NCBI GenBank assembly: GCA_051362555.1
Contig: JBPQGU010000016.1
Location: 992,001 to 1,056,000, forward strand
Source: Lingula anatina
Lineage: Eukaryota > Animalia > Brachiopoda
Direction of reading: 5' to 3'
Length of the DNA stretch: 64,000 nt
The translations under genes were made by a program, and so were the position numbers. Below, piece after piece: positions 1,179-63,165 of the stretch (its first letter is position 1; the number at the start of each line of letters is the position of its first letter). The notes under the pieces were generated by a model that was not told the origin of the DNA, ran no database searches, and was given only the letters and a program-made list of their open reading frames with translations.

Positions 1179-1252
1179 ATGGTGGTGCCTAGGACGCACT
1201 GCCCAGTCATAGAAAGTCATTTAAGGTAATAAGCCCTATTTAGTTCAAGCTA

Positions 1253-12768: not shown

Positions 12769-13634
12769 CTCTGCGTCTGGTGTCCCAGATGATATGATAA
12801 CCGCATTAAGGTCTGCATGCCTGACCAGCTATTTCAAAGAGGTGAGGTGGGGTCTTTAATTTTTTCAGTGGAACATTTTATGGCGGTTTTAGCATACACC
12901 CTAAGTTGAACCAACTTTAGAAATTGCGCAAAGCCTAGATCAGATAAGGATTCAGAGCAAACTCTTTTGTGGCTTGGATAAGCCTTCTGTTAACTGTTCC
13001 GAATCTCCCTCGTCTTCGGTTGTCCTAATAAAAACTGGAGTCCCTTGGCTGTGTAGAATGATTGCATGCGTGGCCTCAGCATAAGAGGTAGATACTATTA
13101 AGATGTGGTGATATTCACTCTTTCGGGTAGGTACATGTATGTATAGATAATGATGCTATGTTAAGATATTATATGTTGCCCATTAATTCACAATTTTAGA
13201 TATTTGAAGAAGTGGAGAAAGTAATGAAACAACTGTGCATGCGTTACTCAGAGCTCACGCAGTAAGTTGAGATCAAGCAATAAAAAAATATTTGTTACCA
13301 TAACATTTATGTGGTGGAATAGAAAGCTCGCCAGTTCTTGGACATTTAAACGTCTTTTAATGATTCCCTCTTCTTAGGGGCTTGCTAAAACATCAAACTC
13401 CTCATTAAAAAAAAAGTCAGCTCTGTAGGAATTCTCAGTGTCGGGTTCTCAGATACGGCTTCGTGTGCATCATGAACTTAAACGGTCATGAAAAACCTTG
13501 GTCGAGGACTGGGGTTGCCCGGGTTGAAATAGGGCACCCGGATTATCGATTGAAATAGCAAATATATACACATGTACATCCAAACTGGCCCTCTCCCTGA
13601 CAAGCTAGAAAATTTCCATTTGATCCATCACTCA

Positions 13635-13737
13635 GCAACGAAGCTTTTGTGGCTCCGTGGTAACTCCGTTGCCTTGTGCGTGAGTGTATCCTTGTCCGCT
13701 GGTTCGAGACCCAGCAAAATGACTCTGATATTTTTTT
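13635..13737 (+). ncRNA. Vault-RNA-like Pol III small RNA gene, copy 1 of 26 (other copies at anchor+3..anchor+105)
   Basis: A box TGGCTCCGTGG (13650-13660) continues as TAACTCCG, resembling vault RNA TAGCTCAGCGGTTACTTCG. B box GGTTCGAGACCC (13701-13712) matches the vault RNA box B. T7 terminator at 13731-13737, ~100 nt in total. No D-stem or anticodon arm can form, so it is not a tRNA. The 5' end is estimated. Confidence 0.55.
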
Positions 13738-13772
13738 CCTAAAAGTAATCTGTAAAATTTGCTTTTGATTAC

Positions 13773-13778
13773 TATAAG
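13773..13778 (+). promoter_or_regulatory. TATA-like element upstream of the second Pol III cassette (all copies)
   Basis: TATAAG lies ~30-37 nt upstream of the predicted start of the tRNA-like head. Confidence 0.35.
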
Positions 13779-13809
13779 AGGAAACTCGTACCTACGGAGG
13801 GTGGGCGGG

Positions 13810-14004
13810 TCAGTCACGGCGCAGTCGGTAGCGTGCTTGGATGCAAAAAAACAATACAAAGCGTCACCAACCATGGTAACGAGAAGTCACGAGTTCGAAT
13901 CCCGGATGAGGCACGTCAGTCCATCACGACAACGACCTTGCCCCCTGTTCGGGCAGTAACCAGAACGAATGCGGGCTCTCGTGGGTCCTAGCAATTTACC
14001 TTTT
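13810..14004 (+). ncRNA. tRNA-derived Pol III transcription unit / SINE-like gene, copy 1 of 26 (other copies at about anchor+178..anchor+372)
   Basis: D arm GCGC-AGTCGGTA-GCGT (A box 13817-13828) and AAGTC variable loop. B box GAGTTCGAATCC at 13891-13902, with ~30 extra nt in the anticodon region. The ~95-nt 3' body has two hairpins (TTGCCC/GGGCAG; GGGCTC/GGGTCC) and ends AATTTACCTTTT. Acceptor and T stems pair poorly, so it is not a functional tRNA. Confidence 0.6.
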
Positions 14005-14570
14005 GCACAATAAAACGATATACTTGAGAATAAGTGATGGATTTAAAAAGAACATAGTAGCATAAAGTCTGCGTCGTCAATAATATGACATGGGAATGGT
14101 CATTGATCTCTATCTTTTTCCAGCTACGTCACCGATCAAACTTGCATTGAGCTATTGCTAACCGCGTATAGAGCCTCGCCTGTCATACTGCAATTTCAGC
14201 AAAATGGGCTCTTTTCTCGGTGGGATTTTCAGAGGAAAAAAGTTTTATTTTTTACAAAAGTCGCCCCGCCGCTATTGCTTTTACCAGTTGTAAACTACGT
14301 TTGTCTTCTTATGCAACCCCTTCCTATCTTGGGTCCATGCTTCTCGAGACGGTTCATATGTTCATTCAGTACCCGAGGCAACTCCACAGTCAACAATGAA
14401 AGAGTAAAATCTACTCAAAACTGAAACCGCCAAGGTGTGAACAGCTGTGGATCTCATCGCGCTCTTTAACGTCAAAGGTGAAACCACACGTTATCTCATT
14501 GCAAAATAAAATGAAACTAAAAACATCTGAACTCATCTTACTAGGAACATTTCCAGCGGATAAGCAATGA

Positions 14571-14690
14571 AACCGATCGACCTTGTATTGATTCAGTAGC
14601 TTCAGGTATAACAGCACGTCATACCACCAACCGATCGACCTTGAATTGATTCAGTAGCTTCAGGTATAACAAACAACACGTCATACCACC
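14571..14690 (+). repeat. Tandem duplication of a 58/62-bp segment within each unit
   Basis: AACCGATCGACCTTG(T/A)ATTGATTCAGTAGCTTCAGGTATAAC...CACGTCATACCACC at 14571-14628 and 14629-14690. Confidence 0.95.
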
Positions 14691-15012
14691 TGTTAACCGC
14701 GTTCACCCGAAAAAAAATTTCTTCTGGGCAGAATTATTTGCCAAATATGTTTTACTCGAAATTCGCATCGACGCAATTGCTTGAATGGAAAAACACACCA
14801 GTTTTCTGCACATTTGAACGTTTTAATTACAATATACGCTTATTATCCGTTTTGTGAGCAAACGCATTTTTCTTACGGTATAGAACATAACAATAAAATG
14901 AAAAAGCAGGGCAAGTAAAGATTACTTGTCTTGAAAAAGTTTGTTGTAATTGTTTATATAATGGATAGGTCTACGTTATCAATAAATACGTTACCAAAAA
15001 ACGTGAAGGTAT

Positions 15013-15435
15013 TGTTTTCTGTTTTCATTCTTTGTTGTCCTTTGGTGCGACACTGTGGATGCGTGCGACGTTGTACATGTGTGCACGCATGTATATACGT
15101 CGCTCATCCTTCTTTGTTACGTTATTATGATACATACGTTACCGTGAAGCGTGTAAATATACATTTATTCTATTTACATTGGTTGTCTTTTGTTTTGTGG
15201 GCACAAAACACTTCTGCCTTAAAGTGTTGGCCCACAAAACGAAAGACAAACCACTGTAAATAAAATAAATAAATATTTACACGGATCACGGTAACGTATA
15301 TATCGGTAACGTATGTATCATTTTAACGTAACAAAGAAGAATGAGCGACGTATAAACATGCGTGCGCACATATACAACGTCACGCGCACACACAGAGTCT
15401 TGACAAAGGACAACAAACAATGAAATCAAAAAATC
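15013..15435. repeat. ~420-bp imperfect palindrome (foldback/MITE-like) at the end of each complete unit
   Basis: ~200-bp arms are reverse complements, e.g. TTTCATTCTTTGTTGTCCTTTG / CAAAGGACAACAAACAATGAAA and CGTCGCTCATCCTTCTTTGTTACGTTA / TAACGTAACAAAGAAGAATGAGCGACG. The spacer is 8 nt (15214-15221). Confidence 0.92.
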
Positions 15436-18400
15436 ATGAACTTTTAAAACGGTCATGAAAAACCTGGGTCGAGGACTGGGGTTGCCCGGGTTGAAATAGG
15501 GCACCCGGATTATCGATTGAAATAGCAAATATATACACATGTACATCCAAACTGGCCCTCTCCCTGACAAGCTAGAAAATTTCCATTTGATCCATCACTC
15601 AGCAACGAAGCTTCTGTGGCTCCGTGGTAACTCCGTTGCCTTGTGCGTGAGTGTATCCTTGTCCGCTGGTTCGAGACCCAGCAAAATGACTCTGATATTT
15701 TTTTCCTAAAAGTAATCTGTAAAATTTGCTTTTGATTACTATAAGAGGAAACTCGTACCTACGGAGGGTGGGCGGGTCAGTCACGGCGCAGTCGGTAGCG
15801 TGCTTGGATGCAAAAAAAACAATACAAAGCGTCACCAACCATGGTAACGAGAAGTCACGAGTTCGAATCCCGGATGAGGCACGTCAGTCCATCACGACAA
15901 CGACCTTGCCCCCTGTTCGGGCAGTAACCAGAACGAATGCGGGCTCTCGTGGGTCCTAGCAATTTACCTTTTGCACAATAAAACGATATACTTGAGAATA
16001 AGTGATGGATTTAAAAAGAACATAGTAGCATAAAGTCTGCGTCGTCAATAATATGACATGGGAATGGTCATTGATCTCTATCTTTTTCCAGCTACGTCAC
16101 CGATCAAACTTGCATTGAGCTATTGCTAACCGCGTATAGAGCCTCGCCTGTCATACTGCAATTTCAGCAAAATGGGCTCTTTTCTCGGTGGGATTTTCAG
16201 AGGAAAAAAGTTTTATTTTTTACAAAAGTCGCCCCGCCGCTATTGCTTTTACCAGTTGTAAACTACGTATGTCTTCTTATGCAACCCCTTCCTATCTTGG
16301 GTCCATGCTTCTCGAGACGGTTCATATGTTCATTCAGTACCCGAGGCAACTCCACAGTCAACAATGAAAGAGTAAAATCTACTCAAAACTGAAACCGCCA
16401 AGGTGTGAACAGCTGTGGATCTCATCGCGCTCTTTAACGTCAAAGGTGAAACCACACGTTATCTCATTGCAAAATAAAATGAAACTAAAAACATCTGAAC
16501 TCATCTTACTAGGAACATTTCCAGCGGATAAGCAATGAAACCGATCGACCTTGTATTGATTCAGTAGCTTCAGGTATAACAGCACGTCATACCACCAACC
16601 GATCGACCTTGAATTGATTCAGTAGCTTCAGGTATAACAAACAACACGTCATACCACCTGTTAACCGCGTTCACCCGAAAAAAAATTTCTTCTGGGCAGA
16701 ATTATTTGCCAAATATGTTTTACTCGAAATTCACATCGACGCAATTGCTTGAATGGAAAACACACCAGTTTTCTGCACATTTGAACGTTTTAATTACAAT
16801 ATACGCTTATTATCCGTTTTGTGAGCAAACGCATTTTTCTTACGGTATAGAACATAACAATAAAATGAAAAAGCAGGGCAAGTAAAGATTACTTGTCTTG
16901 AAAAAGTTTGTTGTAATTGTTTATATAATGGATAGGTCTACGTTATCAATAAATACGTTACCAAAAAACGTGAAGGTATTGTTTTCTGTTTTCATTCTTT
17001 GTTGTCCTTTGGTGCGACACTGTGGATGCGTGCGACGTTGTACATGTGCGCACGCATGTATATTCGTCGCTCATCCTTCTTTGTTACGTTATTATGATAC
17101 ATACGTTACCGTGAAGCGTGTAAATATACATTTATTCTATTTACATTGGTTGTCTTTTGTTTTGTGGGCACAAAACACTTCTGCCTTAAAGTGTTGGCCC
17201 ACAAAACGAAAGACAAACCACTGTAAATAAAATAAATAAATATTTACACGGATCACGGTAACGTATATATCGGTAACGTATGTATCATTTTAACGTAACA
17301 AAGAAGAATGAGCGACGTATAAACATGCGTGCGCACATATACAACGTCACGCGCACACACAGAGTCTTGACAAAGGACAACAAACAATGAAATCAAAAAA
17401 TCATGAACTTTTAAAACGGTCATGAAAAACCTTGGTCGAGGACTGGGGTTGCCCGGGTTGAAATAGGGCACCCGGATTATCGATTGAAATAGCAAATATA
17501 TACACATGTACATCCAAACTGGCCCTCTCCCTGACAAGCTAGAAAATTTCCATTTGATCCATCACTCAGCAACGAAGCTTCTGTGGCTCCGTGGTAACTC
17601 CGTTGCCTTGTGCGTGAGTGTATCCTTGTCCGCTGGTTCGAGACCCAGCAAAATGACCCTGATATTTTTTTCCTAAAAGTAATCTGTAAAATTTGCTTTT
17701 GATTACTATAAGAGGAAACTCGTACCTACGGAGGGTGGGCGGGTCAGTCACGGCGCAGTCGGTAGCGTGCTTGGATGCAAAAAAACAATACAAAGCGTCA
17801 CCAACCATGGTAACGAGAAGTCACGAGTTCGAATCCCGGATGAGGCACGTCAGTCCATCACGACAACGACCTTGCCCCCTGTTCGGGCAGTAACCAGAAC
17901 GAATGCGGGCTCTCGTGGGTCCTAGCAATTTACCTTTTGCACAATAAAACGATATACTTGAGAATAAGTGATGGATTTAAAAAGAACATAGTAGCATAAA
18001 GTCTGCGTCGTCAATAATATGACATGGGAATGGTCATTGATCTCTATCTTTTTCCAGCTACGTCACCGATCAAACTTGCATTGAGCTATTGCTAACCGCG
18101 TATAGAGCCTCGCCTGTCATACTGCAATTTCAGCAAAATGGGCTCTTTTCTCGGTGGGATTTTCAGAGGAAAAAAGTTTTATTTTTTACAAAAGTCGCCC
18201 CGCCGCTATTGCTTTTATCAGTTGTAAACTACGTTTGTCTTCTTATGCAACCCCTTCCTATCTTGGGTCCATGCTTCTCGAGACGGTTCATATGTTCATT
18301 CAGTACCCGAGGCAACTCCACAGTCAACAATGAAAGAGTAAAATCTACTCAAAACTGAAACCGCCAAGGTGTGAACAGCTGTGGATCTCATCGCGCTCTT

Positions 18401-21400
18401 TAACGTCAAAGGTGAAACCACACGTTATCTCATTGCAAAATAAAATGAAACTAAAAACATCTGAACTCATCTTACTAGGAACATTTCCAGCGGATAAGCA
18501 ATGAAACCGATCGACCTTGTATTGATTCAGTAGCTTCAGGTATAACAGCACGTCATACCACCAACCGATCGACCTTGAATTGATTCAGTAGCTTCAGGTA
18601 TAACAAACAACACGTCATACCACCTGTTAACCGCGTTCACCCGAAAAAAAATTTCTTCTGGGCAGAATTATTTGCCAAATATGTTTTACTCGAAATTCGC
18701 ATCGACGCAATTGCTTGAATGGAAAACACACCAGTTTTCTGCACATTTGAACGTTTTAATTACAATATACGCTTATTATCCGTTTTGTGAGCAAACGCAT
18801 TTTTCTTACGGTATAGAACATAACAATAAAATGAAAAAGCAGGGCAAGTAAAGATTACTTGTCTTGAAAAAGTTTGTTGTAATTGTTTATATAATGGATA
18901 GGTCTACGTTATCAATAAATACGTTACCAAAAAACGTGAAGGTATTGTTTTCTGTTTTCATTCTTTGTTGTCCTTTGGTGCGACACTGTGGATGCGTGCG
19001 ACGTTGTACATGTGCGCACGCATGTATATACGTCGCTCATCCTTCTTTGTTACGTTATTATGATACATACGTTACCGTGAAGCGTGTAAATATACATTTA
19101 TTCTATTTACATTGGTTGTCTTTTGTTTTGTGGGCACAAAACACTTCTGCCTTAAAGTGTTGGCCCACAAAACGAAAGACAAACCACTGTAAATAAAATA
19201 AATAAATATTTACACGGATCACGGTAACGTATATATCGGTAACGTATGTATCATTTTAACGTAACAAAGAAGAATGAGCGACGTATAAACATGCGTGCGC
19301 ACATATACAACGTCACGCGCACACACAGAGTCTTGACAAAGGACAACAAACAATGAAATCAAAAAATCATGAACTTTTAAAACGGTCATGAAAAACCTTG
19401 GTCGAGGACTGGGGTTGCCCGGGTTGAAATAGGGCACCCGGATTATCGATTGAAATAGCAAATATATACACATGTACATCCAAACTGGCCCTCTCCCTGA
19501 CAAGCTAGAAAATTTCCATTTGATCCATCACTCAGCAACGAAGCTTCTGTGGCTCCGTGGTAACTCCGTTGCCTTGTGCGTGAGTGTATCCTTGTCCGCT
19601 GGTTCGAGACCCAGCAAAGTGACTCTGATATTTTTTTCCTAAAAGTAATCTGTAAAATTTGCTTTTGATTACTATAAGAGGAAACTCGTACCTACGGAGG
19701 GTGGGCGGGTCAGTCACGGCGCAGTCGGTAGCGTGCTTGGATGCAAAAAAACAATACAAAGCGTCACCAACCATGGTAACGAGAAGTCACGAGTTCGAAT
19801 CCCGGATGAGGCACGTCAGTCCATCACGACAACGACCTTGCCCCCTGTTCGGGCAGTAACCAGAACGAATGCGGGCTCTCGTGGGTCCTAGCAATTTACC
19901 TTTTGCACAATAAAACGATATACTTGAGAATAAGTGATGGATTTAAAAAGAACATAGTAGCATAAAGTCTGCGTCGTCAATAATATGACATGGGAATGGT
20001 CATTGATCTCTATCTTTTTCCAGCTACGTCACCGATCAAACTTGCATTGAGCTATTGCTAACCGCGTATAGAGCCTCGCCTGTCATACTGCAATTTCAGC
20101 AAAATGGGCTCTTTTCTCGGTGGGATTTTCAGAGGAAAAAAGTTTTATTTTTTACAAAAGTCGCCCCGCCGCTATTGCTTTTACCAGTTGTAAACTACGT
20201 TTGTCTTCTTATGCAACCCCTTCCTATCTTGGGTCCATGCTTCTCGAGACGGTTCATATGTTCATTCAGTACCCGAGGCAACTCCACAGTCAACAATGAA
20301 AGAGTAAAATCTACTCAAAACTGAAACCGCCAAGGTGTGAACAGCTGTGGATCTCATCGCGCTCTTTAACGTCAAAGGTGAAACCACACGTTATCTCGTT
20401 GCAAAATAAAATGAAACTAAAAACATCTGAACTCATCTTACTAGGACCATTTCCAGCGGATAAGCAATGAAACCGATCGACCTTGTATTGATTCAGTAGC
20501 TTCAGGTATAACAGCACGTCATACCACCAACCGATCGACCTTGAATTGATTCAGTAGCTTCAGGTATAACAAACAACACGTCATACCACCTGTTAACCGC
20601 GTTCACCCGAAAAAAAATTTCTTCTGGGCAGAATTATTTGCCAAATATGTTTTACTCGAAATTCGCATCGACGCAATTGCTTGAATGGAAAACACACCAG
20701 TTTTCTGCACATTTGAACGTTTTAATTACAATATACGCTTATTATCCGTTTTGTGAGCAAACGCATTTTTCTTACGGTATAGAACATAACAATAAAATGA
20801 AAAAGCAGGGCAAGTAAAGATTACTTGTCTTGAAAAAGTTTGTTGTAATTGTTTATATAATGGATAGGTCTACGTTATCAATAAATACGTTACCAAAAAA
20901 CGTGAAGGTATTGTTTTCTGTTTTCATTCTTTGTTGTCCTTTGGTGCGACACTGTGGATGCGTGCGACGTTGTACATGTGCGCACGCATGTATATACGTC
21001 GCTCATCCTTCTTTGTTACGTTATTATGATACATACGTTACCGTGAAGCGTGTAAATATACATTTATTCTATTTACATTGGTTGTCTTTTGTTTTGTGGG
21101 CACAAAACACTTCTGCCTTAAAGTGTTGGCCCACAAAACGAAAGACAAACCACTGTAAATAAAATAAATAAATATTTACACGGATCACGGTAACGTATAT
21201 ATCGGTAACGTATGTATCATTTTAACGTAACAAAGAAGAATGAGCGACGTATAAACATGCGTGCGCACATATACAACGTCACGCGCACACACAGAGTCTT
21301 GACAAAGGACAACAAACAATGAAATCAAAAAATCATGAACTTTTAAAACGGTCATGAAAAACCTTGGTCGAGGACTGGGGTTGCCCGGGTTGAAATAGGG

Positions 21401-24400
21401 CACCCGGATTATCGATTGAAATAGCAAATATATACACATGTACATCCAAACTGGCCCTCTCCCTGACAAGCTAGAAAATTTCCATTTGATCCATCACTCA
21501 GCAACGAAGCTTCTGTGGCTCCGTGGTAACTCCGTTGCCTTGTGCGTGAGTGTATCCTTGTCCGCTGGTTCGAGACCCAGCAAAATGACTCTGATATTTT
21601 TTTCCTAAAAGTAATCTGTAAAATTTGCTTTTGATTACTATAAGAGGAAACTCGTACCTACGGAGGGTGGGCGGGTCAGTCACGGCGCAGTCGGTAGCGT
21701 GCTTGGATGCAAAAAAACAATACAAAGCGTCACCAACCATGGTAACGAGAAGTCACGAGTTCGAATCCCGGATGAGGCACGTCAGTCCATCACGACAACG
21801 ACCTTGCCCCCTGTTCGGGCAGTAACCAGAACGAATGCGGGCTCTCGTGGGTCCTAGCAATTTACCTTTTGCACAATAAAACGATATACTTGAGAATAAG
21901 TGATGGATTTAAAAAGAACATAGTAGCATAAAGTCTGCGTCGTCAATAATATGACATGGGAATGGTCATTGATCTCTATCTTTTTCCAGCTACGTCACCG
22001 ATCAAACTTGCATTGAGCTATTGCTAACCGCGTATAGAGCCTCGCCTGTCATACTGCAATTTCAGCAAAATGGGCTCTTTTCTCGGTGGGATTTTCAGAG
22101 GAAAAAAGTTTTATTTTTTACAAAAGTCGCCCCGCCGCTATTGCTTTTACCAGTTGTAAACTACGTTTGTCTTCTTATGCAACCCCTTCCTATCTTGGGT
22201 CCATGCTTCTCGAGACGGTTCATATGTTCATTCAGTACCCGAGGCAACTCCACAGTCAACAATGAAAGAGTAAAATCTACTCAAAACTGAAACCGCCAAG
22301 GTGTGAACAGCTGTGGATCTCATCGCGCTCTTTAACGTCAAAGGTGAAACCACACGTTATCTCGTTGCAAAATAAAATGAAACTAAAAACATCTGAACTC
22401 ATCTTACTAGGACCATTTCCAGCGGATAAGCAATGAAACCGATCGACCTTGTATTGATTCAGTAGCTTCAGGTATAACAGCACGTCATACCACCAACCGA
22501 TCGACCTTGAATTGATTCAGTAGCTTCAGGTATAACAAACAACACGTCATACCACCTGTTAACCGCGTTCACCCGAAAAAAAATTTCTTCTGGGCAGAAT
22601 TATTTGCCAAATATGTTTTACTCGAAATTCGCATCGACGCAATTGCTTGAATGGAAAACACACCAGTTTTCTGCACATTTGAACGTTTTAATTACAATAT
22701 ACGCTTATTATCCGTTTTGTGAGCAAACGCATTTTTCTTACGGTATAGAACATAACAATAAAATGAAAAAGCAGGGCAAGTAAAGATTACTTGTCTTGAA
22801 AAAGTTTGTTGTAATTGTTTATATAATGGATAGGTCTACGTTATCAATAAATACGTTACCAAAAAACGTGAAGGTATTGTTTTCTGTTTTCATTCTTTGT
22901 TGTCCTTTGGTGCGACACTGTGGATGCGTGCGACGTTGTACATGTGCGCACGCATGTATATACGTCGCTCATCCTTCTTTGTTACGTTATTATGATACAT
23001 ACGTTACCGTGAAGCGTGTAAATATACATTTATTCTATTTACATTGGTTGTCTTTTGTTTTGTGGGCACAAAACACTTCTGCCTTAAAGTGTTGGCCCAC
23101 AAAACGAAAGACAAACCACTGTAAATAAAATAAATAAATATTTACACGGATCACGGTAACGTATATATCGGTAACGTATGTATCATTTTAACGTAACAAA
23201 GAAGAATGAGCGACGTATAAACATGCGTGCGCACATATACAACGTCACGCGCACACACAGAGTCTTGACAAAGGACAACAAACAATGAAATCAAAAAATC
23301 ATGAACTTTTAAAACGGTCATGAAAAACCTTGGTCGAGGACTGGGGTTGCCCGGGTTGAAATAGGGCACCCGGATTATCGATTGAAATAGCAAATATATA
23401 CACATGTACATCCAAACTGGCCCTCTCCCTGACAAGCTAGAAAATTTCCATTTGATCCATCACTCAGCAACGAAGCTTCTGTGGCTCCGTGGTAACTCCG
23501 TTGCCTTGTGCGTGAGTGTATCCTTGTCCGCTGGTTCGAGACCCAGCAAAATGACTCTGATATTTTTTTCCTAAAAGTAATCTGTAAAATTTGCTTTTGA
23601 TTACTATAAGAGGAAACTCGTACCTACGGAGGGTGGGCGGGTCAGTCACGGCGCAGTCGGTAGCGTGCTTGGATGCAAAAAAACAATACAAAGCGTCACC
23701 AACCATGGTAACGAGAAGTCACGAGTTCGAATCCCGGATGAGGCACGTCAGTCCATCACGACAACGACCTTGCCCCCTGTTCGGGCAGTAACCAGAACGA
23801 ATGCGGGCTCTCGTGGGTCCTAGCAATTTACCTTTTGCACAATAAAACGATATACTTGAGAATAAGTGATGGATTTAAAAAGAACATAGTAGCATAAAGT
23901 CTGCGTCGTCAATAATATGACATGGGAATGGTCATTGATCTCTATCTTTTTCCAGCTACGTCACCGATCAAACTTGCATTGAGCTATTGCTAACCGCGTA
24001 TAGAGCCTCGCCTGTCATACTGCAATTTCAGCAAAATGGGCTCTTTTCTCGGTGGGATTTTCAGAGGAAAAAAGTTTTATTTTTTACAAAAGTCGCCCCG
24101 CCGCTATTGCTTTTACCAGTTGTAAACTACGTTTGTCTTCTTATGCAACCCCTTCCTATCTTGGGTCCATGCTTCTCGAGACGGTTCATATGTTCATTCA
24201 GTACCCGAGGCAACTCCACAGTCAACAATGAAAGAGTAAAATCTACTCAAAACTGAAACCGCCAAGGTGTGAACAGCTGTGGATCTCATCGCGCTCTTTA
24301 ACGTCAAAGGTGAAACCACACGTTATCTCATTGCAAAATAAAATGAAACTAAAAACATCTGAACTCATCTTACTAGGACCATTTCCAGCGGATAAGCAAT

Positions 24401-27400
24401 GAAACCGATCGACCTTGTATTGATTCAGTAGCTTCAGGTATAACAGCACGTCATACCACCAACCGATCGACCTTGAATTGATTCAGTAGCTTCAGGTATA
24501 ACAAACAACACGTCATACCACCTGTTAACCGCGTTCACCCGAAAAAAAATTTCTTCTGGGCAGAATTATTTGCCAAATATGTTTTACTCGAAATTCGCAT
24601 CGACGCAATTGCTTGAATGGAAAAACACACCAGTTTTCTGCACATTTGAACGTTTTAATTACAATATACGCTTATTATCCGTTTTGTGAGCAAACGCATT
24701 TTTCTTACGGTATAGAACATAACAATAAAATGAAAAAGCAGGGCAAGTAAAGATTACTTGTCTTGAAAAAGTTTGTTGTAATTGTTTATATAATGGATAG
24801 GTCTACGTTATCAATAAATACGTTACCAAAAAACGTGAAGGTATTGTTTTCTGTTTTCATTCTTTGTTGTCCTTTGGTGCGACACTGTGGATGCGTGCGA
24901 CGTTGTACATGTGCGCACGCATGTATATACGTCGCTCATCCTTCTTTGTTACGTTATTATGATACATACGTTACCGTGAAGCGTGTAAATATACATTTAT
25001 TCTATTTACATTGGTTGTCTTTTGTTTTGTGGGCACAAAACACTTCTGCCTTAAAGTGTTGGCCCACAAAACGAAAGACAAACCACTGTAAATAAAATAA
25101 ATAAATATTTACACGGATCACGGTAACGTATATATCGGTAACGTATGTATCATTTTAACGTAACAAAGAAGAATGAGCGACGTATAAACATGCGTGCGCA
25201 CATATACAACGTCACGCGCACACACAGAGTCTTGACAAAGGACAACAAACAATGAAATCAAAAAATCATGAACTTTTAAAACGGTCATGAAAAACCTTGG
25301 TCGAGGACTGGGGTTGCCCGGGTTGAAATAGGGCACCCGGATTATCGATTGAAATAGCAAATATATACACATGTACATCCAAACTGGCCCTCTCCCTGAC
25401 AAGCTAGAAAATTTCCATTTGATCCATCACTCAGCAACGAAGCTTCTGTGGCTCCGTGGTAACTCCGTTGCCTTGTGCGTGAGTGTATCCTTGTCCGCTG
25501 GTTCGAGACCCAGCAAAATGACTCTGATATTTTTTTCCTAAAAGTAATCTGTAAAATTTGCTTTTGATTACTATAAGAGGAAACTCGTACCTACGGAGGG
25601 TGGGCGGGTCAGTCACGGCGCAGTCGGTAGCGTGCTTGGATGCAAAAAAAACAATACAAAGCGTCACCAACCATGGTAACGAGAAGTCACGAGTTCGAAT
25701 CCCGGATGAGGCACGTCAGTCCATCACGACAACGACCTTGCCCCCTGTTCGGGCAGTAACCAGAACGAATGCGGGCTCTCGTGGGTCCTAGCAATTTACC
25801 TTTTGCACAATAAAACGATATACTTGAGAATAAGTGATGGATTTAAAAAGAACATAGTAGCATAAAGTCTGCGTCGTCAATAATATGACATGGGAATGGT
25901 CATTGATCTCTATCTTTTTCCAGCTACGTCACCGATCAAACTTGCATTGAGCTATTGCTAACCGCGTATAGAGCCTCGCCTGTCATACTGCAATTTCAGC
26001 AAAATGGGCTCTTTTCTCGGTGGGATTTTCAGAGGAAAAAAGTTTTATTTTTTACAAAAGTCGCCCCGCCGCTATTGCTTTTACCAGTTGTAAACTACGT
26101 TTGTCTTCTTATGCAACCCCTTCCTATCTTGGGTCCATGCTTCTCGAGACGGTTCATATGTTCATTCAGTACCCGAGGCAACTCCACAGTCAACAATGAA
26201 AGAGTAAAATCTACTCAAAACTGAAACCGCCAAGGTGTGAACAGCTGTGGATCTCATCGCGCTCTTTAACGTCAAAGGTGAAACCACACGTTATCTCATT
26301 GCAAAATAAAATGAAACTAAAAACATCTGAACTCATCTTACTAGGAACATTTCCAGCGGATAAGCAATGAAACCGATCGACCTTGTATTGATTCAGTAGC
26401 TTCAGGTATAACAGCACGTCATACCACCAACCGATCGACCTTGAATTGATTCAGTAGCTTCAGGTATAACAAACAACACGTCATACCACCTGTTAACCGC
26501 GTTCACCCGAAAAAAAATTTCTTCTGGGCAGAATTATTTGCCAAATATGTTTTACTCGAAATTCACATCGACGCAATTGCTTGAATGGAAAACACACCAG
26601 TTTTCTGCACATTTGAACGTTTTAATTACAATATACGCTTATTATCCGTTTTGTGAGCAAACGCATTTTTCTTACGGTATAGAACATAACAATAAAATGA
26701 AAAAGCAGGGCAAGTAAAGTTAACTTGTCTTGAAAAAGTTTGTTGTAATTGTTTATATAATGGATAGGTCTACGTTATCAATAAATACGTTACCAAAAAA
26801 CGTGAAGGTATTGTTTTCTGTTTTCATTCTTTGTTGTCCTTTGGTGCGACACTGTGGATGCGTGCGACGTTGTACATGTGCGCACGCATGTATATTCGTC
26901 GCTCATCCTTCTTTGTTACGTTATTATGATACATACGTTACCGTGAAGCGTGTAAATATACATTTATTCTATTTACATTGGTTGTCTTTTGTTTTGTGGG
27001 CACAAAACACTTCTGCCTTAAAGTGTTGGCCCACAAAACGAAAGACAAACCACTGTAAATAAAATAAATAAATATTTACACGGATCACGGTAACGTATAT
27101 ATCGGTAACGTATGTATCATTTTAACGTAACAAAGAAGAATGAGCGACGTATAAACATGCGTGCGCACATATACAACGTCACGCGCACACACAGAGTCTT
27201 GACAAAGGACAACAAACAATGAAATCAAAAAATCATGAACTTTTAAAACGGTCATGAAAAACCTTGGTCGAGGACTGGGGTTGCCCGGGTTGAAATAGGG
27301 CACCCGGATTATCGATTGAAATAGCAAATATATACACATGTACATCCAAACTGGCCCTCTCCCTGACAAGCTAGAAAATTTCCATTTGATCCATCACTCA

Positions 27401-30400
27401 GCAACGAAGCTTCTGTGGCTCCGTGGTAACTCCGTTGCCTTGTGCGTGAGTGTATCCTTGTCCGCTGGTTCGAGACCCAGCAAAATGACTCTGATATTTT
27501 TTTCCTAAAAGTAATCTGTAAAATTTGCTTTTGATTACTATAAGAGGAAACTCGTACCTACGGAGGGTGGGCGGGTCAGTCACGGCGCAGTCGGTAGCGT
27601 GCTTGGATGCAAAAAAACAATACAAAGCGTCACCAACCATGGTAACGAGAAGTCACGAGTTCGAATCCCGGATGAGGCACGTCAGTCCATCACGACAACG
27701 ACCTTGCCCCCTGTTCGGGCAGTAACCAGAACGAATGCGGGCTCTCGTGGGTCCTAGCAATTTACCTTTTGCACAATAAAACGATATACTTGAGAATAAG
27801 TGATGGATTTAAAAAGAACATAGTAGCATAAAGTCTGCGTCGTCAATAATATGACATGGGAATGGTCATTGATCTCTATCTTTTTCCAGCTACGTCACCG
27901 ATCAAACTTGCATTGAGCTATTGCTAACCGCGTATAGAGCCTCGCCTGTCATACTGCAATTTCAGCAAAATGGGCTCTTTTCTCGGTGGGATTTTCAGAG
28001 GCAAAAAGTTTTATTTTTTACAAAAGTCGCCCCGCCGCTATTGCTTTTACCAGTTGTAAACTACGTTTGTCTTCTTATGCAACCCCTTCCTATCTTGGGT
28101 CCATGCTTCTCGAGACGGTTCATATGTTCATTCAGTACCCGAGGCAACTCCACAGTCAACAATGAAAGAGTAAAATCTACTCAAAACTGAAACCGCCAAG
28201 GTGTGAACAGCTGTGGATCTCATCGCGCTCTTTAACGTCAAAGGTGAAACCACACGTTATCTCATTGCAAAATAAAATGAAACTAAAAACATCTGAACTC
28301 ATCTTACTAGGAACATTTCCAGCGGATAAGCAATGAAACCGATCGACCTTGTATTGATTCAGTAGCTTCAGGTATAACAGCACGTCATACCACCAACCGA
28401 TCGACCTTGAATTGATTCAGTAGCTTCAGGTATAACAAACAACACGTCATACCACCTGTTAACCGCGTTCACCCGAAAAAAAATTTCTTCTGGGCAGAAT
28501 TATTTGCCAAATATGTTTTACTCGAAATTCGCATCGACGCAATTGCTTGAATGGAAAACACACCAGTTTTCTGCACATTTGAACGTTTTAATTACAATAT
28601 ACGCTTATTATCCGTTTTGTGAGCAAACGCATTTTTCTTACGGTATAGAACATAACAATAAAATGAAAAAGCAGGGCAAGTAAAGTTAACTTGTCTTGAA
28701 AAAGTTTGTTGTAATTGTTTATATAATGGATAGGTCTACGTTATCAATAAATACGTTACCAAAAAACGTGAAGGTATTGTTTTCTGTTTTCATTCTTTGT
28801 TGTCCTTTGGTGCGACACTGTGGATGCGTGCGACGTTGTACATGTGCGCACGCATGTATATTCGTCGCTCATCCTTCTTTGTTACGTTATTATGATACAT
28901 ACGTTACCGTGAAGCGTGTAAATATACATTTATTCTATTTACATTGGTTGTCTTTTGTTTTGTGGGCACAAAACACTTCTGCCTTAAAGTGTTGGCCCAC
29001 AAAACGAAAGACAAACCACTGTAAATAAAATAAATAAATATTTACACGGATCACGGTAACGTATATATCGGTAACGTATGTATCATTTTAACGTAACAAA
29101 GAAGAATGAGCGACGTATAAACATGCGTGCGCACATATACAACGTCACGCGCACACACAGAGTCTTGACAAAGGACAACAAACAATGAAATCAAAAAATC
29201 ATGAACTTTTAAAACGGTCATGAAAAACCTTGGTCGAGGACTGGGGTTGCCCGGGTTGAAATAGGGCACCCGGATTATCGATTGAAATAGCAAATATATA
29301 CACATGTACATCCAAACTGGCCCTCTCCCTGACAAGCTAGAAAATTTCCATTTGATCCATCACTCAGCAACGAAGCTTCTGTGGCTCCGTGGTAACTCCG
29401 TTGCCTTGTGCGTGAGTGTATCCTTGTCCGCTGGTTCGAGACCCAGCAAAATGACTCTGATATTTTTTTCCTAAAAGTAATCTGTAAAATTTGCTTTTGA
29501 TTACTATAAGAGGAAACTCGTACCTACGGAGGGTGGGCGGGTCAGTCACGGCGCAGTCGGTAGCGTGCTTGGATGCAAAAAAACAATACAAAGCGTCACC
29601 AACCATGGTAACGAGAAGTCACGAGTTCGAATCCCGGATGAGGCACGTCAGTCCATCACGACAACGACCTTGCCCCCTGTTCGGGCAGTAACCAGAACGA
29701 ATGCGGGCTCTCGTGGGTCCTAGCAATTTACCTTTTGCACAATAAAACGATATACTTGAGAATAAGTGATGGATTTAAAAAGAACATAGTAGCATAAAGT
29801 CTGCGTCGTCAATAATATGACATGGGAATGGTCATTGATCTCTATCTTTTTCCAGCTACGTCACCGATCAAACTTGCATTGAGCTATTGCTAACCGCGTA
29901 TAGAGCCTCGCCTGTCATACTGCAATTTCAGCAAAATGGGCTCTTTTCTCGGTGGGATTTTCAGAGGCAAAAAGTTTTATTTTTTACAAAAGTCGCCCCG
30001 CCGCTATTGCTTTTACCAGTTGTAAACTACGTTTGTCTTCTTATGCAACCCCTTCCTATCTTGGGTCCATGCTTCTCGAGACGGTTCATATGTTCATTCA
30101 GTACCCGAGGCAACTCCACAGTCAACAATGAAAGAGTAAAATCTACTCAAAACTGAAACCGCCAAGGTGTGAACAGCTGTGGATCTCATCGCGCTCTTTA
30201 ACGTCAAAGGTGAAACCACACGTTATCTCATTGCAAAATAAAATGAAACTAAAAACATCTGAACTCATCTTACTAGGAACATTTCCAGCGGATAAGCAAT
30301 GAAACCGATCGACCTTGTATTGATTCAGTAGCTTCAGGTATAACAGCACGTCATACCACCAACCGATCGACCTTGAATTGATTCAGTAGCTTCAGGTATA

Positions 30401-33400
30401 ACAAACAACACGTCATACCACCTGTTAACCGCGTTCACCCGAAAAAAAATTTCTTCTGGGCAGAATTATTTGCCAAATATGTTTTACTCGAAATTCGCAT
30501 CGACGCAATTGCTTGAATGGAAAACACACCAGTTTTCTGCACATTTGAACGTTTTAATTACAATATACGCTTATTATCCGTTTTGTGAGCAAACGCATTT
30601 TTCTTACGGTATAGAACATAACAATAAAATGAAAAAGCAGGGCAAGTAAAGATTACTTGTCTTGAAAAAGTTTGTTGTAATTGTTTATATAATGGATAGG
30701 TCTACGTTATCAATAAATACGTTACCAAAAAACGTGAAGGTATTGTTTTCTGTTTTCATTCTTTGTTGTCCTTTGGTGCGACACTGTGGATGCGTGCGAC
30801 GTTGTACATGTGCGCACGCATGTATATACGTCGCTCATCCTTCTTTGTTACGTTATTATGATACATACGTTACCATGAAGCGTGTAAATATACATTTATT
30901 CTATTTACATTGGTTGTCTTTTGTTTTGTGGGCACAAAACACTTCTGCCTTAAAGTGTTGGCCCACAAAACGAAAGACAAACCACTGTAAATAAAATAAA
31001 TAAATATTTACACGGATCACGGTAACGTGTATATCGGTAACGTATGTATCATTTTAACGTAACAAAGAAGAATGAGCGACGTATAAACATGCGTGCGCAC
31101 ATATACAACGTCACGCGCACACACAGAGTCTTGACAAAGGACAACAAACAATGAAATCAAAAAATCATGAACTTTTAAAACGGTCATGAAAAACCTTGGT
31201 CGAGGACTGGGGTTGCCCGGGTTGAAATAGGGCACCCGGATTATCGATTGAAATAGCAAATATATACACATGTACATCCAAACTGGCCCTCTCCCTGACA
31301 AGCTAGAAAATTTCCATTTGATCCATCACTCAGCAACGAAGCTTCTGTGGCTCCGTGGTAACTCCGTTGCCTTGTGCGTGAGTGTATCCTTGTCCGCTGG
31401 TTCGAGACCCAGCAAAATGACTCTGATATTTTTTTCCTAAAAGTAATCTGTAAAATTTGCTATTGATTACTATAAGAGGAAACTCGTACCTACGGAGGGT
31501 GGGCGGGTCAGTCACGGCGCAGTCGGTAGCGTGCTTGGATGCAAAAAAACAATACAAAGCGTCACCAACCATGGTAACGAGAAGTCACGAGTTCGAATCC
31601 CGGATGAGGCACGTCAGTCCATCACGACAACGACCTTGCCCCCTGTTCGGGCAGTAACCAGAACGAATGCGGGCTCTCGTGGGTCCTAGCAATTTACCTT
31701 TTGCACAATAAAACGATATACTTGAGAATAAGTGATGGATTTAAAAAGAACATAGTAGCATAAAGTCTGCGTCGTCAATAATATGACATGGGAATGGTCA
31801 TTGATCTCTATCTTTTTCCAGCTACGTCACCGATCAAACTTGCATTGAGCTATTGCTAACCGCGTATAGAGCCTCGCCTGTCATACTGCAATTTCAGCAA
31901 AATGGGCTCTTTTCTCGGTGGGATTTTCAGAGGCAAAAAGTTTTATTTTTTACAAAAGTCGCCCCGCCGCTATTGCTTTTACCAGTTGTAAACTACGTTT
32001 GTCTTCTTATGCAACCCCTTCCTATCTTGGGTCCATGCTTCTCGAGACGGTTCATATGTTCATTCAGTACCCGAGGCAACTCCACAGTCAACAATGAAAG
32101 AGTAAAATCTACTCAAAACTGAAACCGCCAAGGTGTGAACAGCTGTGGATCTCATCGCGCTCTTTAACGTCAAAGGTGAAACCACACGTTATCTCATTGC
32201 AAAATAAAATGAAACTAAAAACATCTGAACTCATCTTACTAGGAACATTTCCAGCGGATAAGCAATGAAACCGATCGACCTTGTATTGATTCAGTAGCTT
32301 CAGGTATAACAGCACGTCATACCACCAACCGATCGACCTTGAATTGATTCAGTAGCTTCAGGTATAACAAACAACACGTCATACCACCTGTTAACCGCGT
32401 TCACCCGAAAAAAAATTTCTTCTGGGCAGAATTATTTGCCAAATATGTTTTACTCGAAATTCGCATCGACGCAATTGCTTGAATGGAAAACACACCAGTT
32501 TTCTGCACATTTGAACGTTTTAATTACAATATACGCTTATTATCCGTTTTGTGAGCAAACGCATTTTTTTACGGTATAGAACATAACAATAAAATGAAAA
32601 AGCAGGGCAAGTAAAGATTACTTGTCTTGAAAAAGTTTGTTGTAATTGTTTATATAATGGATAGGTCTACGTTATCAATTAATACGTTACCAAAAAACGT
32701 GAAGGTATTGTTTTCTGTTTTCATTCTTTGTTGTCCTTTGGTGCGACACTGTGGATGCGTGCGACGTTGTACATGTGCGCACGCATGTATATACGTCGCT
32801 CATCCTTCTTTGTTACGTTATTATGATACATACGTTACCATGAAGCGTGTAAATATACATTTATTCTATTTACATTGGTTGTCTTTTGTTTTGTGGGCAC
32901 AAAACACTTCTGCCTTAAAGTGTTGGCCCACAAAACGAAAGACAAACCACTGTAAATAAAATAAATAAATATTTACACGGATCACGGTAACGTATATATC
33001 GGTAACGTATGTATCATTTTAACGTAACAAAGAAGAATGAGCGACGTATAAACATGCGTGCGCACATATACAACGTCACGCGCACACACAGAGTCTTGAC
33101 AAAGGACAACAAACAATGAAATCAAAAAATCATGAACTTTTAAAACGGTCATGAAAAACCTTGGTCGAGGACTGGGGTTGCCCGGGTTGAAATAGGGCAC
33201 CCGGATTATCGATTGAAATAGCAAATATATACACATGTACATCCAAACTGGCCCTCTCCCTGACAAGCTAGAAAATTTCCATTTGATCCATCACTCAGCA
33301 ACGAAGCTTCTGTGGCTCCGTGGTAACTCCGTTGCCTTGTGCGTGAGTGTATCCTTGTCCGCTGGTTCGAGACCCAGCAAAATGACTCTGATATTTTTTT

Positions 33401-36400
33401 CCTAAAAGTAATCTGTAAAATTTGCTTTTGATTACTATAAGAGGAAACTCGTACCTACGGAGGGTGGGCGGGTCAGTCACGGCGCAGTCGGTAGCGTGCT
33501 TGGATGCAAAAAAACAATACAAAGCGTCACCAACCATGGTAACGAGAAGTCACGAGTTCGAATCCCGGATGAGGTACGTCAGTCCATCACGACAACGACC
33601 TTGCCCCCTGTTCGGGCAGTAACCAGAACGAATGCGGGCTCTCGTGGGTCCTAGCAATTTACCTTTTGCACAATAAAACGATATACTTGAGAATAAGTGA
33701 TGGATTTAAAAAGAACATAGTAGCATAAAGTCTGCGTCGTCAATAATATGACATGGGAATGGTCATTGATCTCTATCTTTTTCCAGCTACGTCACCGATC
33801 AAACTTGCATTGAGCTATTGCTAACCGCGTATAGAGCCTCGCCTGTCATACTGCAATTTCAGCAAAATGGGCTCTTTTCTCGGTGGGATTTTCAGAGGAA
33901 AAAAGTTTTATTTTTTACAAAAGTCGCCCCGCCGCTATTGCTTTTATCAGTTGTAAACTACGTTTGTCTTCTTATGCAACCCCTTCCTATCTTGGGTCCA
34001 TGCTTCTCGAGACGGTTCATATGTTCATTCAGTACCCGAGGCAACTCCACAGTCAACAATGAAAGAGTAAAATCTACTCAAAACTGAAACCGCCAAGGTG
34101 TGAACAGCTGTGGATCTCATCGCGCTCTTTAACGTCAAAGGTGAAACCACACGTTATCTCATTGCAAAATAAAATGAAACTAAAAACATCTGAACTCATC
34201 TTACTAGGAACATTTCCAGCGGATAAGCAATGAAACCGATCGACCTTGTATTGATTCAGTAGCTTCAGGTATAACAGCACGTCATACCACCAACCGATCG
34301 ACCTTGAATTGATTCAGTAGCTTCAGGTATAACAAACAACACGTCATACCACCTGTTAACCGCGTTCACCCGAAAAAAAATTTCTTCTGGGCAGAATTAT
34401 TTGCCAAATATGTTTTACTCGAAATTCGCATCGACGCAATTGCTTGAATGGAAAACACACCAGTTTTCTGCACATTTGAACGTTTTAATTACAATATACG
34501 CTTATTATCCGTTTTGTGAGCAAACGCATTTTTCTTACGGTATAGAACATAACAATAAAATGAAAAAGCAGGGCAAGTAAAGATTACTTGTCTTGAAAAA
34601 GTTTGTTGTAATTGTTTATATAATGGATAGGTCTACGTTATCAATTAATACGTTACCAAAAAACGTGAAGGTATTGTTTTCTGTTTTCATTCTTTGTTGT
34701 CCTTTGGTGCGACACTGTGGATGCGTGCGACGTTGTACATGTGCGCACGCATGTATATACGTCGCTCATCCTTCTTTGTTACGTTATTATGATACATACG
34801 TTACCATGAAGCGTGTAAATATACATTTATTCTATTTACATTGGTTGTCTTTTGTTTTGTGGGCACAAAACACTTCTGCCTTAAAGTGTTGGCCCACAAA
34901 ACGAAAGACAAACCACTGTAAATAAAATAAATAAATATTTACACGGATCACGGTAACGTATATATCGGTAACGTATGTATCATTTTAACGTAACAAAGAA
35001 GAATGAGCGACGTATAAACATGCGTGCGCACATATACAACGTCACGCGCACACACAGAGTCTTGACAAAGGACAACAAACAATGAAATCAAAAAATCATG
35101 AACTTTTAAAACGGTCATGAAAAACCTTGGTCGAGGACTGGGGTTGCCCGGGTTGAAATAGGGCACCCGGATTATCGATTGAAATAGCAAATATATACAC
35201 ATGTACATCCAAACTGGCCCTCTCCCTGACAAGCTAGAAAATTTCCATTTGATCCATCACTCAGCAACGAAGCTTCTGTGGCTCCGTGGTAACTCCGTTG
35301 CCTTGTGCGTGAGTGTATCCTTGTCCGCTGGTTCGAGACCCAGCAAAATGACTCTGATATTTTTTTCCTAAAAGTAATCTGTAAAATTTGCTTTTGATTA
35401 CTATAAGAGGAAACTCGTACCTACGGAGGGTGGGCGGGTCAGTCACGGCGCAGTCGGTAGCGTGCTTGGATGCAAAAAAACAATACAAAGCGTCACCAAC
35501 CATGGTAACGAGAAGTCACGAGTTCGAATCCCGGATGAGGTACGTCAGTCCATCACGACAACGACCTTGCCCCCTGTTCGGGCAGTAACCAGAACGAATG
35601 CGGGCTCTCGTGGGTCCTAGCAATTTACCTTTTGCACAATAAAACGATATACTTGAGAATAAGTGATGGATTTAAAAAGAACATAGTAGCATAAAGTCTG
35701 CGTCGTCAATAATATGACATGGGAATGGTCATTGATCTCTATCTTTTTCCAGCTACGTCACCGATCAAACTTGCATTGAGCTATTGCTAACCGCGTATAG
35801 AGCCTCGCCTGTCATACTGCAATTTCAGCAAAATGGGCTCTTTTCTCGGTGGGATTTTCAGAGGAAAAAAGTTTTATTTTTTACAAAAGTCGCCCCGCCG
35901 CTATTGCTTTTATCAGTTGTAAACTACGTTTGTCTTCTTATGCAACCCCTTCCTATCTTGGGTCCATGCTTCTCGAGACGGTTCATATGTTCATTCAGTA
36001 CCCGAGGCAACTCCACAGTCAACAATGAAAGAGTAAAATCTACTCAAAACTGAAACCGCCAAGGTGTGAACAGCTGTGGATCTCATCGCGCTCTTTAACG
36101 TCAAAGGTGAAACCACACGTTATCTCATTGCAAAATAAAATGAAACTAAAAACATCTGAACTCATCTTACTAGGAACATTTCCAGCGGATAAGCAATGAA
36201 ACCGATCGACCTTGTATTGATTCAGTAGCTTCAGGTATAACAGCACGTCATACCACCAACCGATCGACCTTGAATTGATTCAGTAGCTTCAGGTATAACA
36301 AACAACACGTCATACCACCTGTTAACCGCGTTCACCCGAAAAAAAATTTCTTCTGGGCAGAATTATTTGCCAAATATGTTTTACTCGAAATTCGCATCGA

Positions 36401-62795: not shown

Positions 62796-62898
62796 GCAAC
62801 GAAGCTTCTGTGGCTCCGTGGTAACTCCGTTGCCTTGTGCGTGAGTGTATCCTTGTCCGCTGGTTCGAGACCCAGCAAAATGACTCTGATATTTTTTT
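62796..62898 (+). ncRNA. Vault-RNA-like Pol III small RNA gene, copy 26
   Basis: Same A box, GGTTCGAGACCC and T7 as copy 1. Confidence 0.55.
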
Positions 62899-62970
62899 CC
62901 TAAAAGTAATCTGTAAAATTTGCTTTTGATTACTATAAGAGGAAACTCGTACCTACGGAGGGTGGGCGGG

Positions 62971-63165
62971 TCAGTCACGGCGCAGTCGGTAGCGTGCTTG
63001 GATGCAAAAAAACAATACAAAGCGTCACCAACCATGGTAACGAGAAGTCACGAGTTCGAATCCCGGATGAGGCACGTCAGTCCATCACGACAACGACCTT
63101 GCCCCCTGTTCGGGCAGTAACCAGAACGAATGCAGGCTCTCGTGGGTCCTAGCAATTTACCTTTT
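62971..63165 (+). ncRNA. tRNA-derived SINE-like Pol III unit, copy 26
   Basis: Same A and B boxes and T4 as copy 1, with one substitution in the 3' body. Confidence 0.55.

What the first reader, a model, noticed from the sequence alone, without database searches (positions are those of the whole stretch)
13635..13737. Candidate vault RNA gene amplified to at least 26 tandem copies
Seen: TGGCTCCGTGGTAACTCCG ... GCTGGTTCGAGACCCAGC ... TTTTTTT within ~100 nt. Established: vault RNAs are ~100-nt Pol III transcripts with box A TAGCTCAGCGGTTACTTCG and box B GTTCGAGACCC, and they normally occur as a few copies. Seen: a 5' hairpin GCAACGAAG/CTCCGTTGC (13635-13672, 8 of 9 pairs) and a 3' hairpin GCTGG/CCAGC. 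The canonical vault 5'/3' closing stem is weak here (TT(C/T)TG-TGG with CCAGCAAAA). Inference: either a divergent invertebrate vault RNA at unusually high copy number, or a new vault-like RNA class.
Basis: partly seen in the sequence, partly recalled or inferred. Interest (0 to 1): 0.75.

Follow-up and report, generated by a model that had tools for sequence, protein, structure and literature searches.

The report
Tandem tRNA-derived RNA gene, vault-like boxes
In a lamp shell (Lingula-like brachiopod), at least 26 near-identical 2-kb repeats each carry a short gene-like unit with RNA polymerase III signals that resemble vault RNA, but it is not predicted to fold like vault RNA and more likely descends from a tRNA gene; no RNA from it has been seen.

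Summary
In detail: 26 copies at 1,965-1,967-bp spacing, 99.7% identical, running off the window end. Each has box A (13650), box B (13701) and T7 (13731). The match to the quoted vault boxes is 25 of 30 letters; none of 300 shuffles reached it. Vault membership fails both defining tests I could run: no Rfam Vault hit even at E<=10, and the 5'/3' closing stem is 6-16 kcal/mol worse than the best fold. The 3' half sits in tRNA register (positions 38-65, 5-bp T-stem): a motif from it found tRNA genes in 59 of 73 loci, and it scores like a tRNA on a profile from 89 unselected tRNAs (1 of 3,000 shuffles). The host is a brachiopod, not a deuterostome. The unit is a patchwork with a SINE-like element, other repeats and a 419-bp palindrome at the junction, with no sign of purifying selection. 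No small-RNA library was available, so expression is untested. Best reading: a tRNA-derived Pol III unit in a young macrosatellite, laid out like rodent 4.5SH genes. A divergent vault gene stays possible (about 0.2). The scan noted similar tRNA-derived arrays in other genomes, not this sequence.

The parts
13470..64000 (+). Tandem array, unit 1,965-1,967 bp, 25 complete units plus a partial 26th; continues beyond the window
   Evidence: mean 6.2 differences between units (range 1-11)
13610..13617 (+). A/T-rich stretch at -31/-24 if transcription starts near 13641; no canonical TATA or CRE seen
   Evidence: sequence; position rule from PMC7279448 passages; start site inferred
13635..13737 (+). 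Element 1: Pol III type-2 unit of the finding, predicted RNA about 95-105 nt, not a cloverleaf and not a vault panhandle
   Evidence: Rfam negative; ARAGORN negative at default
13650..13668 (+). Box A (13650-13660, one mismatch to the recalled consensus) plus vault-like extension
   Evidence: 14 of 19 to the quoted vault motif; extension absent from 89 of 89 control tRNAs
13688..13715 (+). tRNA-like 3' half: positions 38-43, 4-nt variable loop, 5-bp T-stem with an 8-nt loop holding box B (13701-13711)
13731..13737 (+). T7 run, predicted Pol III terminator, 18 nt after box B; a further T4 at 13763-13766
   Evidence: sequence
13773..14004 (+). Element 2: TATAA at 13773, tRNA-like head from about 13803 (box A 13817-13828, box B 13892-13902), T4 at 14001-14004; SINE-like member of a dispersed family
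   Evidence: reads at 90-99% identity with several distinct variant sets, many running on unlike; tRNA profile 5.1 bits, 1.7% of shuffles; fold no better than shuffles
14289..14690 (.). Mid-unit stretch matched by diverged reads in run X6, including a 58-62-bp direct repeat (14571-14690)
15015..15433 (.). 419-bp imperfect palindrome (78% self-complementary, foldback/MITE-like) whose right end abuts the unit junction; absent before the first unit
   Evidence: explains the sub-threshold miRNA-model hits

Best explanation
Each 1.97-kb repeat carries a short unit that likely descends from a tRNA gene, keeps box A, box B and a T7 run, and would be read by RNA polymerase III into a roughly 100-nt RNA predicted to fold as two separate stem domains; it was likely multiplied as part of a young macrosatellite and not because it is a vault RNA. 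Inferred steps: (1) a tRNA gene copy kept positions 8-21 and 38-65 but lost the pairing strands of the acceptor, D and anticodon stems and gained 6-8 nt in the middle, where intron-bearing tRNA genes have their intron; (2) TFIIIC would still bind the two boxes and Pol III would stop at T7; (3) a segment with this unit, a SINE-like neighbour and other repeat pieces was duplicated head to tail, likely helped by the palindrome at the junction, and then spread and homogenised by unequal exchange. Shown: the array, the boxes, the register with tRNA, the predicted fold, the patchwork unit. Not shown: transcription, any protein partner, any selection on the RNA.
For: Window motif 13688-13707 retrieved ARAGORN tRNA genes in 59 of 73 viral loci, 36 of them tRNA-Tyr(GTA); element 1 aligns end to end with such genes with one 9-nt insertion at the anticodon loop (L044). 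Unselected control of 89 tRNA genes: the 14 nt before box B score 7.2 bits, tRNA median 6.4; 1 of 3,000 shuffles and 0.26% of unit 14-mers score as high; mean in-register match beaten by 0.17% of shuffles. T-stem probability 0.998; panhandle below 0.001. Rfam negative. Variation is not lower in the gene: 4 of 111 sites vary against 32 of 1,967 substitution sites overall. The rest of the unit is hit by diverged reads from other loci. The palindrome ends at the junction. Variants are shared by non-adjacent units.
Against: The 5' half shows no tRNA likeness beyond box A (46% of shuffles as good with box A fixed; acceptor strand 5.9%, positions 22-33 score -11.5 bits). The best single tRNA match is not significant (8 of 10, 8.6% of shuffles; an earlier gapped version 35%). 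Rfam's tRNA model does not hit. 0 of 89 control tRNAs have GA after GGTTCGA or the vault-like extension. The controls are viral tRNAs, not Lingula's. Real vault RNAs could not be scored on the profile, and may keep the same tRNA-like stretch. The 5' domain folds somewhat better than local shuffles (2-4%) and the 63-nt core has 0 variable sites (about 1 expected), weak hints of constraint.
Confidence: 0.47

Rival explanations
1. Same tRNA origin, but the unit is a selected, lineage-specific small RNA gene and the array is kept for dosage, as with rodent 4.5SH genes.
For: Both boxes, T7 and about 165 bp of upstream flank are intact in all 26 copies. The 5' domain folds better than shuffles of the leader (4.3%, 1.7%) or the middle (2.2%). 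One X1 fragment matches 13636-13668 at 90-95% and runs on unlike, so a second family member with another body likely exists (two reads inferred from depth). Precedent: hundreds of 4.5SH genes in 4-5-kb tandem units (PMC7279448, passages); snaR genes in tandem arrays (PMC3045588, passages).
Against: No excess conservation within the array; the 3' trailer pairing is no better than shuffles (20-33%); no shared read starts or ends in six long-RNA runs (weak, wrong library type).
Confidence: 0.22
2. A divergent lophotrochozoan vault RNA gene, or a vault-derived copy, amplified far above the usual few copies and bound by TEP1 in vaults.
For: 25 of 30 letters match the quoted vault boxes; the extension and the GA in box B are each absent from 89 of 89 control tRNAs; length about 100 nt with T7. 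Putative Fasciola vault RNAs (PMC8824774 Table S9, compared by eye): 4 of 5 share the 8-nt word at 13691-13698 at a similar distance from the T-run (38 vs 40 nt in the first), and one has the same CTCCG variant of the extension. That paper says ordinary homology search does not find them. A 4-bp 13632-13635/13725-13728 helix can be drawn.
Against: No RF00006 match although Lottia and Helobdella sequences are in that family; 5'/3' duplex weaker than 99% of shuffles in a typical unit, 85-90% in unit 1; forced vault-type stems cost 6-16 kcal/mol; the box B word also occurs in tRNAs, Helenus LTRs (3 against 61 with two common variants) and a V-SINE. The Fasciola RNAs are themselves putative.
Confidence: 0.2
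3. Elements 1 and 2 are pieces of one silent composite mobile element (dimeric SINE or TRIM-like) caught in a satellite; no discrete RNA is made.
For: In X4 a diverged locus shares the spacer and TATA upstream of element 2, and about one read reaches back into the box B region; an X3 pair runs through the T7.
Against: Other loci begin to match only at about 13801-13806, the start of element 2; T7 separates the two; the three Lingula Helenus LTRs do not match by eye; no LTR ends or target duplication seen.
Confidence: 0.09
4. A spliced-leader or other Pol II snRNA-type gene array (G|GTAAC at 13659|13660 read as a donor site).
For: Tandem array of about 2 kb and a GT in a hairpin-forming region.
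Against: The only partial reads span 13636-13668 and do not stop at the donor; no Sm-type site seen; box A, box B and T7 point to Pol III; no Rfam match.
Confidence: 0.02

Closest known systems
Rodent 4.5SH RNA genes (PMC7279448, passages)
   Same: About 100-nt type-2 Pol III unit with T7, each copy inside a multi-kb tandem repeat; derived from another Pol III RNA
   Different: 4.5SH derives from 7SL via B1, has 4-5-kb units, hundreds of copies, a CRE near -50 and a proven abundant RNA; here a 1.97-kb unit, likely tRNA origin, no CRE seen, no RNA shown
Primate snaR genes (PMC3045588, passages)
   Same: Young Pol III small-RNA genes spread by segmental duplication into tandem arrays together with repeat fragments
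   Different: Alu-derived, about 30 genes, expressed and NF90-bound; none of this is shown here
Vault RNA, Rfam RF00006 (PMC7058938 section 2; PMC8824774 passages and Table S9)
   Same: Extended box A and box B words, length, T-run terminator
   Different: No model match, no 5'/3' stem, a tRNA-type T-stem instead, and at least 26 copies against one to five in the species those papers list
Nuclear tRNA genes, nearest intron-bearing tRNA-Tyr(GTA) and tRNA-Arg/Phe/Met 3' halves
   Same: Register of box A, positions 38-65, T-stem and a T-run a few bases after the gene end
   Different: Acceptor, D and anticodon stems do not pair; T-loop has 8 nt; not called by ARAGORN at default or by Rfam
tRNA-derived mobile elements of Lingula: LinSINE1 (PMC4824008, passages) and Helenus-1/2/3_LAn (PMC10886601, parts 1-3 of 6 and supplement hits)
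   Same: tRNA-type boxes without tRNA function
   Different: Helenus LTRs do not match by eye; LinSINE1 could not be compared (its sequence is in a figure, not in the supplement text); element 1 ends at T7 with no SINE body

Membership tests
Vault RNA (RF00006) | Box A followed by a TTACTTCG-type extension | tested here: met
   14 of 19 to the motif quoted in the finding; 6 of 8 in the extension
Vault RNA (RF00006) | Box B, T-run terminator, 80-150 nt | tested here: met
   11 of 11; T7 at 13731; about 95-105 nt if the start is 13635-13643 (start inferred)
Vault RNA (RF00006) | 5' and 3' regions pair into a closing stem (panhandle) | tested here: not met
   Pair probability below 0.001 for all starts tried; forced stems cost 6-16 kcal/mol; duplex weaker than most shuffles. 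No real vault RNA was folded as a positive control
Vault RNA (RF00006) | Covariance-model score | tested here: not met
   No hit at gathering or at E<=10 on 2,051 and 151 bp
Vault RNA (RF00006) | Upstream CRE-like element near -50 | tested here: inconclusive
   No TGACGTCA seen by eye; described for vertebrates, start site unknown
Vault RNA (RF00006) | Binds TEP1 / copurifies with MVP vaults | not testable with these tools
   Needs pull-down
Vault RNA (RF00006) | Host encodes MVP and TEP1 | not tested
   No genome held; no paper held both 'major vault protein' and 'Lingula anatina'; no protein search run
Functional tRNA gene | Cloverleaf with acceptor, D, anticodon and T stems | tested here: not met
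   ARAGORN 0 genes; Rfam none; only the T-stem pairs
tRNA-derived sequence | tRNA-like sequence in register outside the promoter boxes | tested here: met
   Positions 38-51: 1 of 3,000 shuffles on a profile of 89 unselected tRNAs; 5' half not significant
SINE | Body and LINE-type tail, many dispersed copies with target duplications | tested here: inconclusive
   Element 1 stops at T7 with no body; one partial homologue seen in reads; no genome to count copies. Element 2 behaves like a dispersed family
Helenus TRIM | TG...CA LTRs with PBS and PPT | tested here: not met
   No LTR pair in the unit; Lingula Helenus LTRs differ by eye
4.5SH/snaR-type Pol III RNA gene arrays | Type-2 Pol III unit with terminator in a multi-kb tandem repeat | tested here: met
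4.5SH/snaR-type Pol III RNA gene arrays | Discrete, abundant ~100-nt RNA | tested here: inconclusive
   Only polyA, oligo-dT and unspecified long-insert runs could be laid; no pile-up
Spliced-leader RNA | Leader exon on mRNA 5' ends, ending at the GT donor; Sm site | tested here: not met
   Partial reads span 13636-13668, past the donor; no Sm-type site seen

The most novel reading that the evidence does not exclude
Lingula has built a new ~100-nt Pol III RNA from a tRNA gene, or remodelled its vault RNA so that it lost the closing stem, and has amplified it into an array of at least 26 copies whose RNA fills a real particle (vault/TEP1 or another). This would be the first high-copy array of vault-like RNA genes that my searches turned up, and a lophotrochozoan parallel to rodent 4.5SH.
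Probability: 0.3. Interest if true: 0.62.

Novelty: new member of a known kind. Interest (0 to 1): 0.34.

Why it matters
If the RNA is made and used, it adds a lineage-specific small RNA to a phylum with no such RNA found in my searches, and its mix of tRNA register and vault-like boxes bears on how vault RNAs arose from tRNA genes. The high copy number makes it easy to test by Northern blot or small-RNA sequencing. If it is a passenger, it is an ordinary young macrosatellite and a caution that vault-type box words alone do not identify a vault RNA.

Tried and rejected
Rfam: nothing at gathering on the window; only palindrome-driven, sub-threshold miRNA models on one unit; no Vault or tRNA hit on either element at E<=10. 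Whole genome: none held. Sequencing-run search: no RNA holder listed; 6 of the 9 listed runs were laid. Strict vault-type pattern in metagenomes: 0 hits; looser pattern: 17 loci, none with box A or terminator context by eye and none a Vault hit, so no real vault RNA was available as a control. Spliced-leader idea rejected. Helenus TRIM rejected by eye. Y-RNA-like bulged helix at 13694-13698/13720-13723 considered: it is internal, and the trailer pairing is not better than shuffles. Coding potential: 3 ORFs of the unit have no Pfam match. Low-threshold ARAGORN calls on the unit are not credible cloverleafs. No degenerate copies of the unit in the left flank. The first panhandle test left out the CC of box B and was redone with the same result; the first gapped best-match test and the element-2 anchor were faulty and redone. 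Permuted-motif control scans were not run. Stadler 2009 and Kolev 2019 are not held; I know them only through citing papers. Literature searches for vault RNA or arrays in Lingula or tandem vault genes listed nothing on this array; figures with vault alignments (PMC8824774 Fig. 8, not held; its supplementary image file has no text) could not be seen and may bear on the vault rival. Earlier scan notes: no look-alike sequence.

Full report
Observation. Box B occurs 26 times at 1,965-1,967-bp spacing and the array runs off the window end. Its left edge is at about 13470. The 25 complete units differ by 6.2 bases on average (range 1-11); 23 of 35 variable columns are shared by two or more, often non-adjacent, units. 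That pattern fits a real, young array with unequal exchange (inference). The match to the two vault motifs quoted in the finding is 14 of 19 and 11 of 11; 0 of 300 shuffles of the unit reached the joint 25 of 30.

Host. The flank holds tandem sulfotransferase genes (PF13469). All 3 hits of one exon among 444 candidates are Lingula anatina proteins, the best 77% identical, and earlier unreviewed notes on the same genome name Lingula. No genome is held.

Vault tests. Rfam gives nothing at gathering on the window and no Vault match at E<=10 on 151 bp. [quoted passage not shown] Here no start between 13622 and 13644 gives such a stem. With box B's CC included, the 5'/3' duplex is weaker than 99% of shuffles in a typical unit and 85-90% in unit 1; forcing vault-type stems costs 6-16 kcal/mol; their pair probabilities are below 0.001. 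The best fold has a 5' branched domain (13629-13686) and a 3' long hairpin (13687-13730) ending at the U-run. The box B word is not vault-specific: it is in tRNA genes L021 and L057, in 3 Helenus LTRs against 61 with two common variants and in a bivalve V-SINE. I could not fetch a real vault RNA as a positive control.

tRNA origin. The stretch 13688-13715 lies in register with tRNA positions 38-65 (numbering from my own knowledge): six bases of loop and anticodon stem, a 4-nt variable loop and a 5-bp T-stem with an 8-nt loop (probability 0.998). A motif from it found 73 viral loci; 59 are ARAGORN tRNA genes covering the motif, 36 of them tRNA-Tyr(GTA). On their profile the 14 nt before box B score 7.2 bits against a tRNA median of 6.4; 1 of 3,000 shuffles scores as high; the mean in-register match is reached by 0.17% of shuffles, the best single match by 8.6%. 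The 5' half shows no significant likeness beyond box A, and positions 22-33 are not tRNA-like. Box A to box B spacing is 51 against 43-46 in 85 of 89 controls; the extra bases align at the anticodon loop, where introns sit. The unit cannot fold as a cloverleaf.

What keeps the vault rival alive. None of the 89 tRNAs has the vault-like extension or GA after GGTTCGA. Putative Fasciola vault RNAs share, by eye, an 8-nt word at a similar distance from the T-run (4 of 5) and one has the same extension variant (PMC8824774 Table S9). Real vault RNAs might keep the same tRNA-like stretch, which I could not test. The 18-nt gap from box B to the T-run agrees with my recollection of human vtRNA1-1; that comes from no call.

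The rest of the unit. Element 2 (TATAA 13773; boxes 13817 and 13892; T4 14001) is hit in all six runs by reads mostly 90-95% alike, with several variant sets, many running on unlike; several begin to match at about 13801-13806. It behaves like a dispersed SINE-type family. The mid-unit is hit by diverged reads in X6. A 419-bp palindrome ends at the unit junction and is missing before the first unit; a role in starting the amplification is inferred. Substitutions are not rarer in element 1 (4 of 111 sites) than in the unit (32 of 1,967); the 63-nt core has none, about 1 expected.

Expression. Six runs (about 66 million records, 6-25% of each run; polyA, oligo-dT or unspecified) show no shared starts or ends. 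About five reads touch element 1, counted from depth: an X1 pair matching 13636-13668 at 90-95% and running on unlike (likely a second family member), an X3 pair from about 13671 that crosses the T7 (DNA or read-through), and about one diverged X4 read. These libraries lose ~100-nt unpolyadenylated RNAs, so this says little.

Mechanism and verdict. Most likely a tRNA-gene copy kept its internal promoter and terminator, lost the cloverleaf, and was amplified inside a 1.97-kb patchwork repeat; it would give a ~100-nt two-domain Pol III RNA, with no evidence yet of use (0.47). A selected 4.5SH-like RNA (0.22), a divergent vault gene (0.20), a silent composite mobile element (0.09) and a spliced leader (0.02) are the rivals. 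It is laid out like 4.5SH genes (PMC7279448, passages) and snaR arrays (PMC3045588, passages) and is not filed as a vault RNA. The 4.5SH comparison was prompted by an earlier scan note. The scan has unreviewed notes on similar tRNA-derived arrays in other genomes but no look-alike sequence. My paper searches (listings only) showed no description of this array. Interest 0.34.

Noticed in passing
window 2229-3989 (+), 5111-5357 (+), 6953-8922 (+), 9412-11976 (-): Cluster of multi-exon sulfotransferase (PF13469) genes: two + copies about 88% identical over 1.7 kb, a fragment between them and a more distant copy on the - strand; nearest hits are uncharacterised Lingula proteins.
   Followed up: partly
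window 13773-14004: Element 2 has TATAA 30 bases before its 5' edge, and one other locus seen in run X4 shares that upstream stretch but changes after 13844; it could be a source gene of a SINE family or a second Pol III RNA gene with a variable middle.
   Followed up: partly
window 15015-15433: 419-bp palindrome built from TACGTTAC-type subrepeats, foldback/MITE-like, at the array junction; gives sub-threshold hits to many miRNA models.
   Followed up: partly
window 1078-1181, 5744-5848, 12187-12296: Short palindromic MITE-like elements in the flank.
   Followed up: no
window 13664-13672 against 13635-13643: The segment that replaces tRNA positions 22-31 is an 8-of-9 reverse complement of the leader, as a template switch might leave; this could be the origin of the vault-like extension.
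   Followed up: no
L020-L090 (viral contigs): Many viral contigs carry intron-bearing tRNA-Tyr(GTA) genes with introns of varied length.
   Followed up: no
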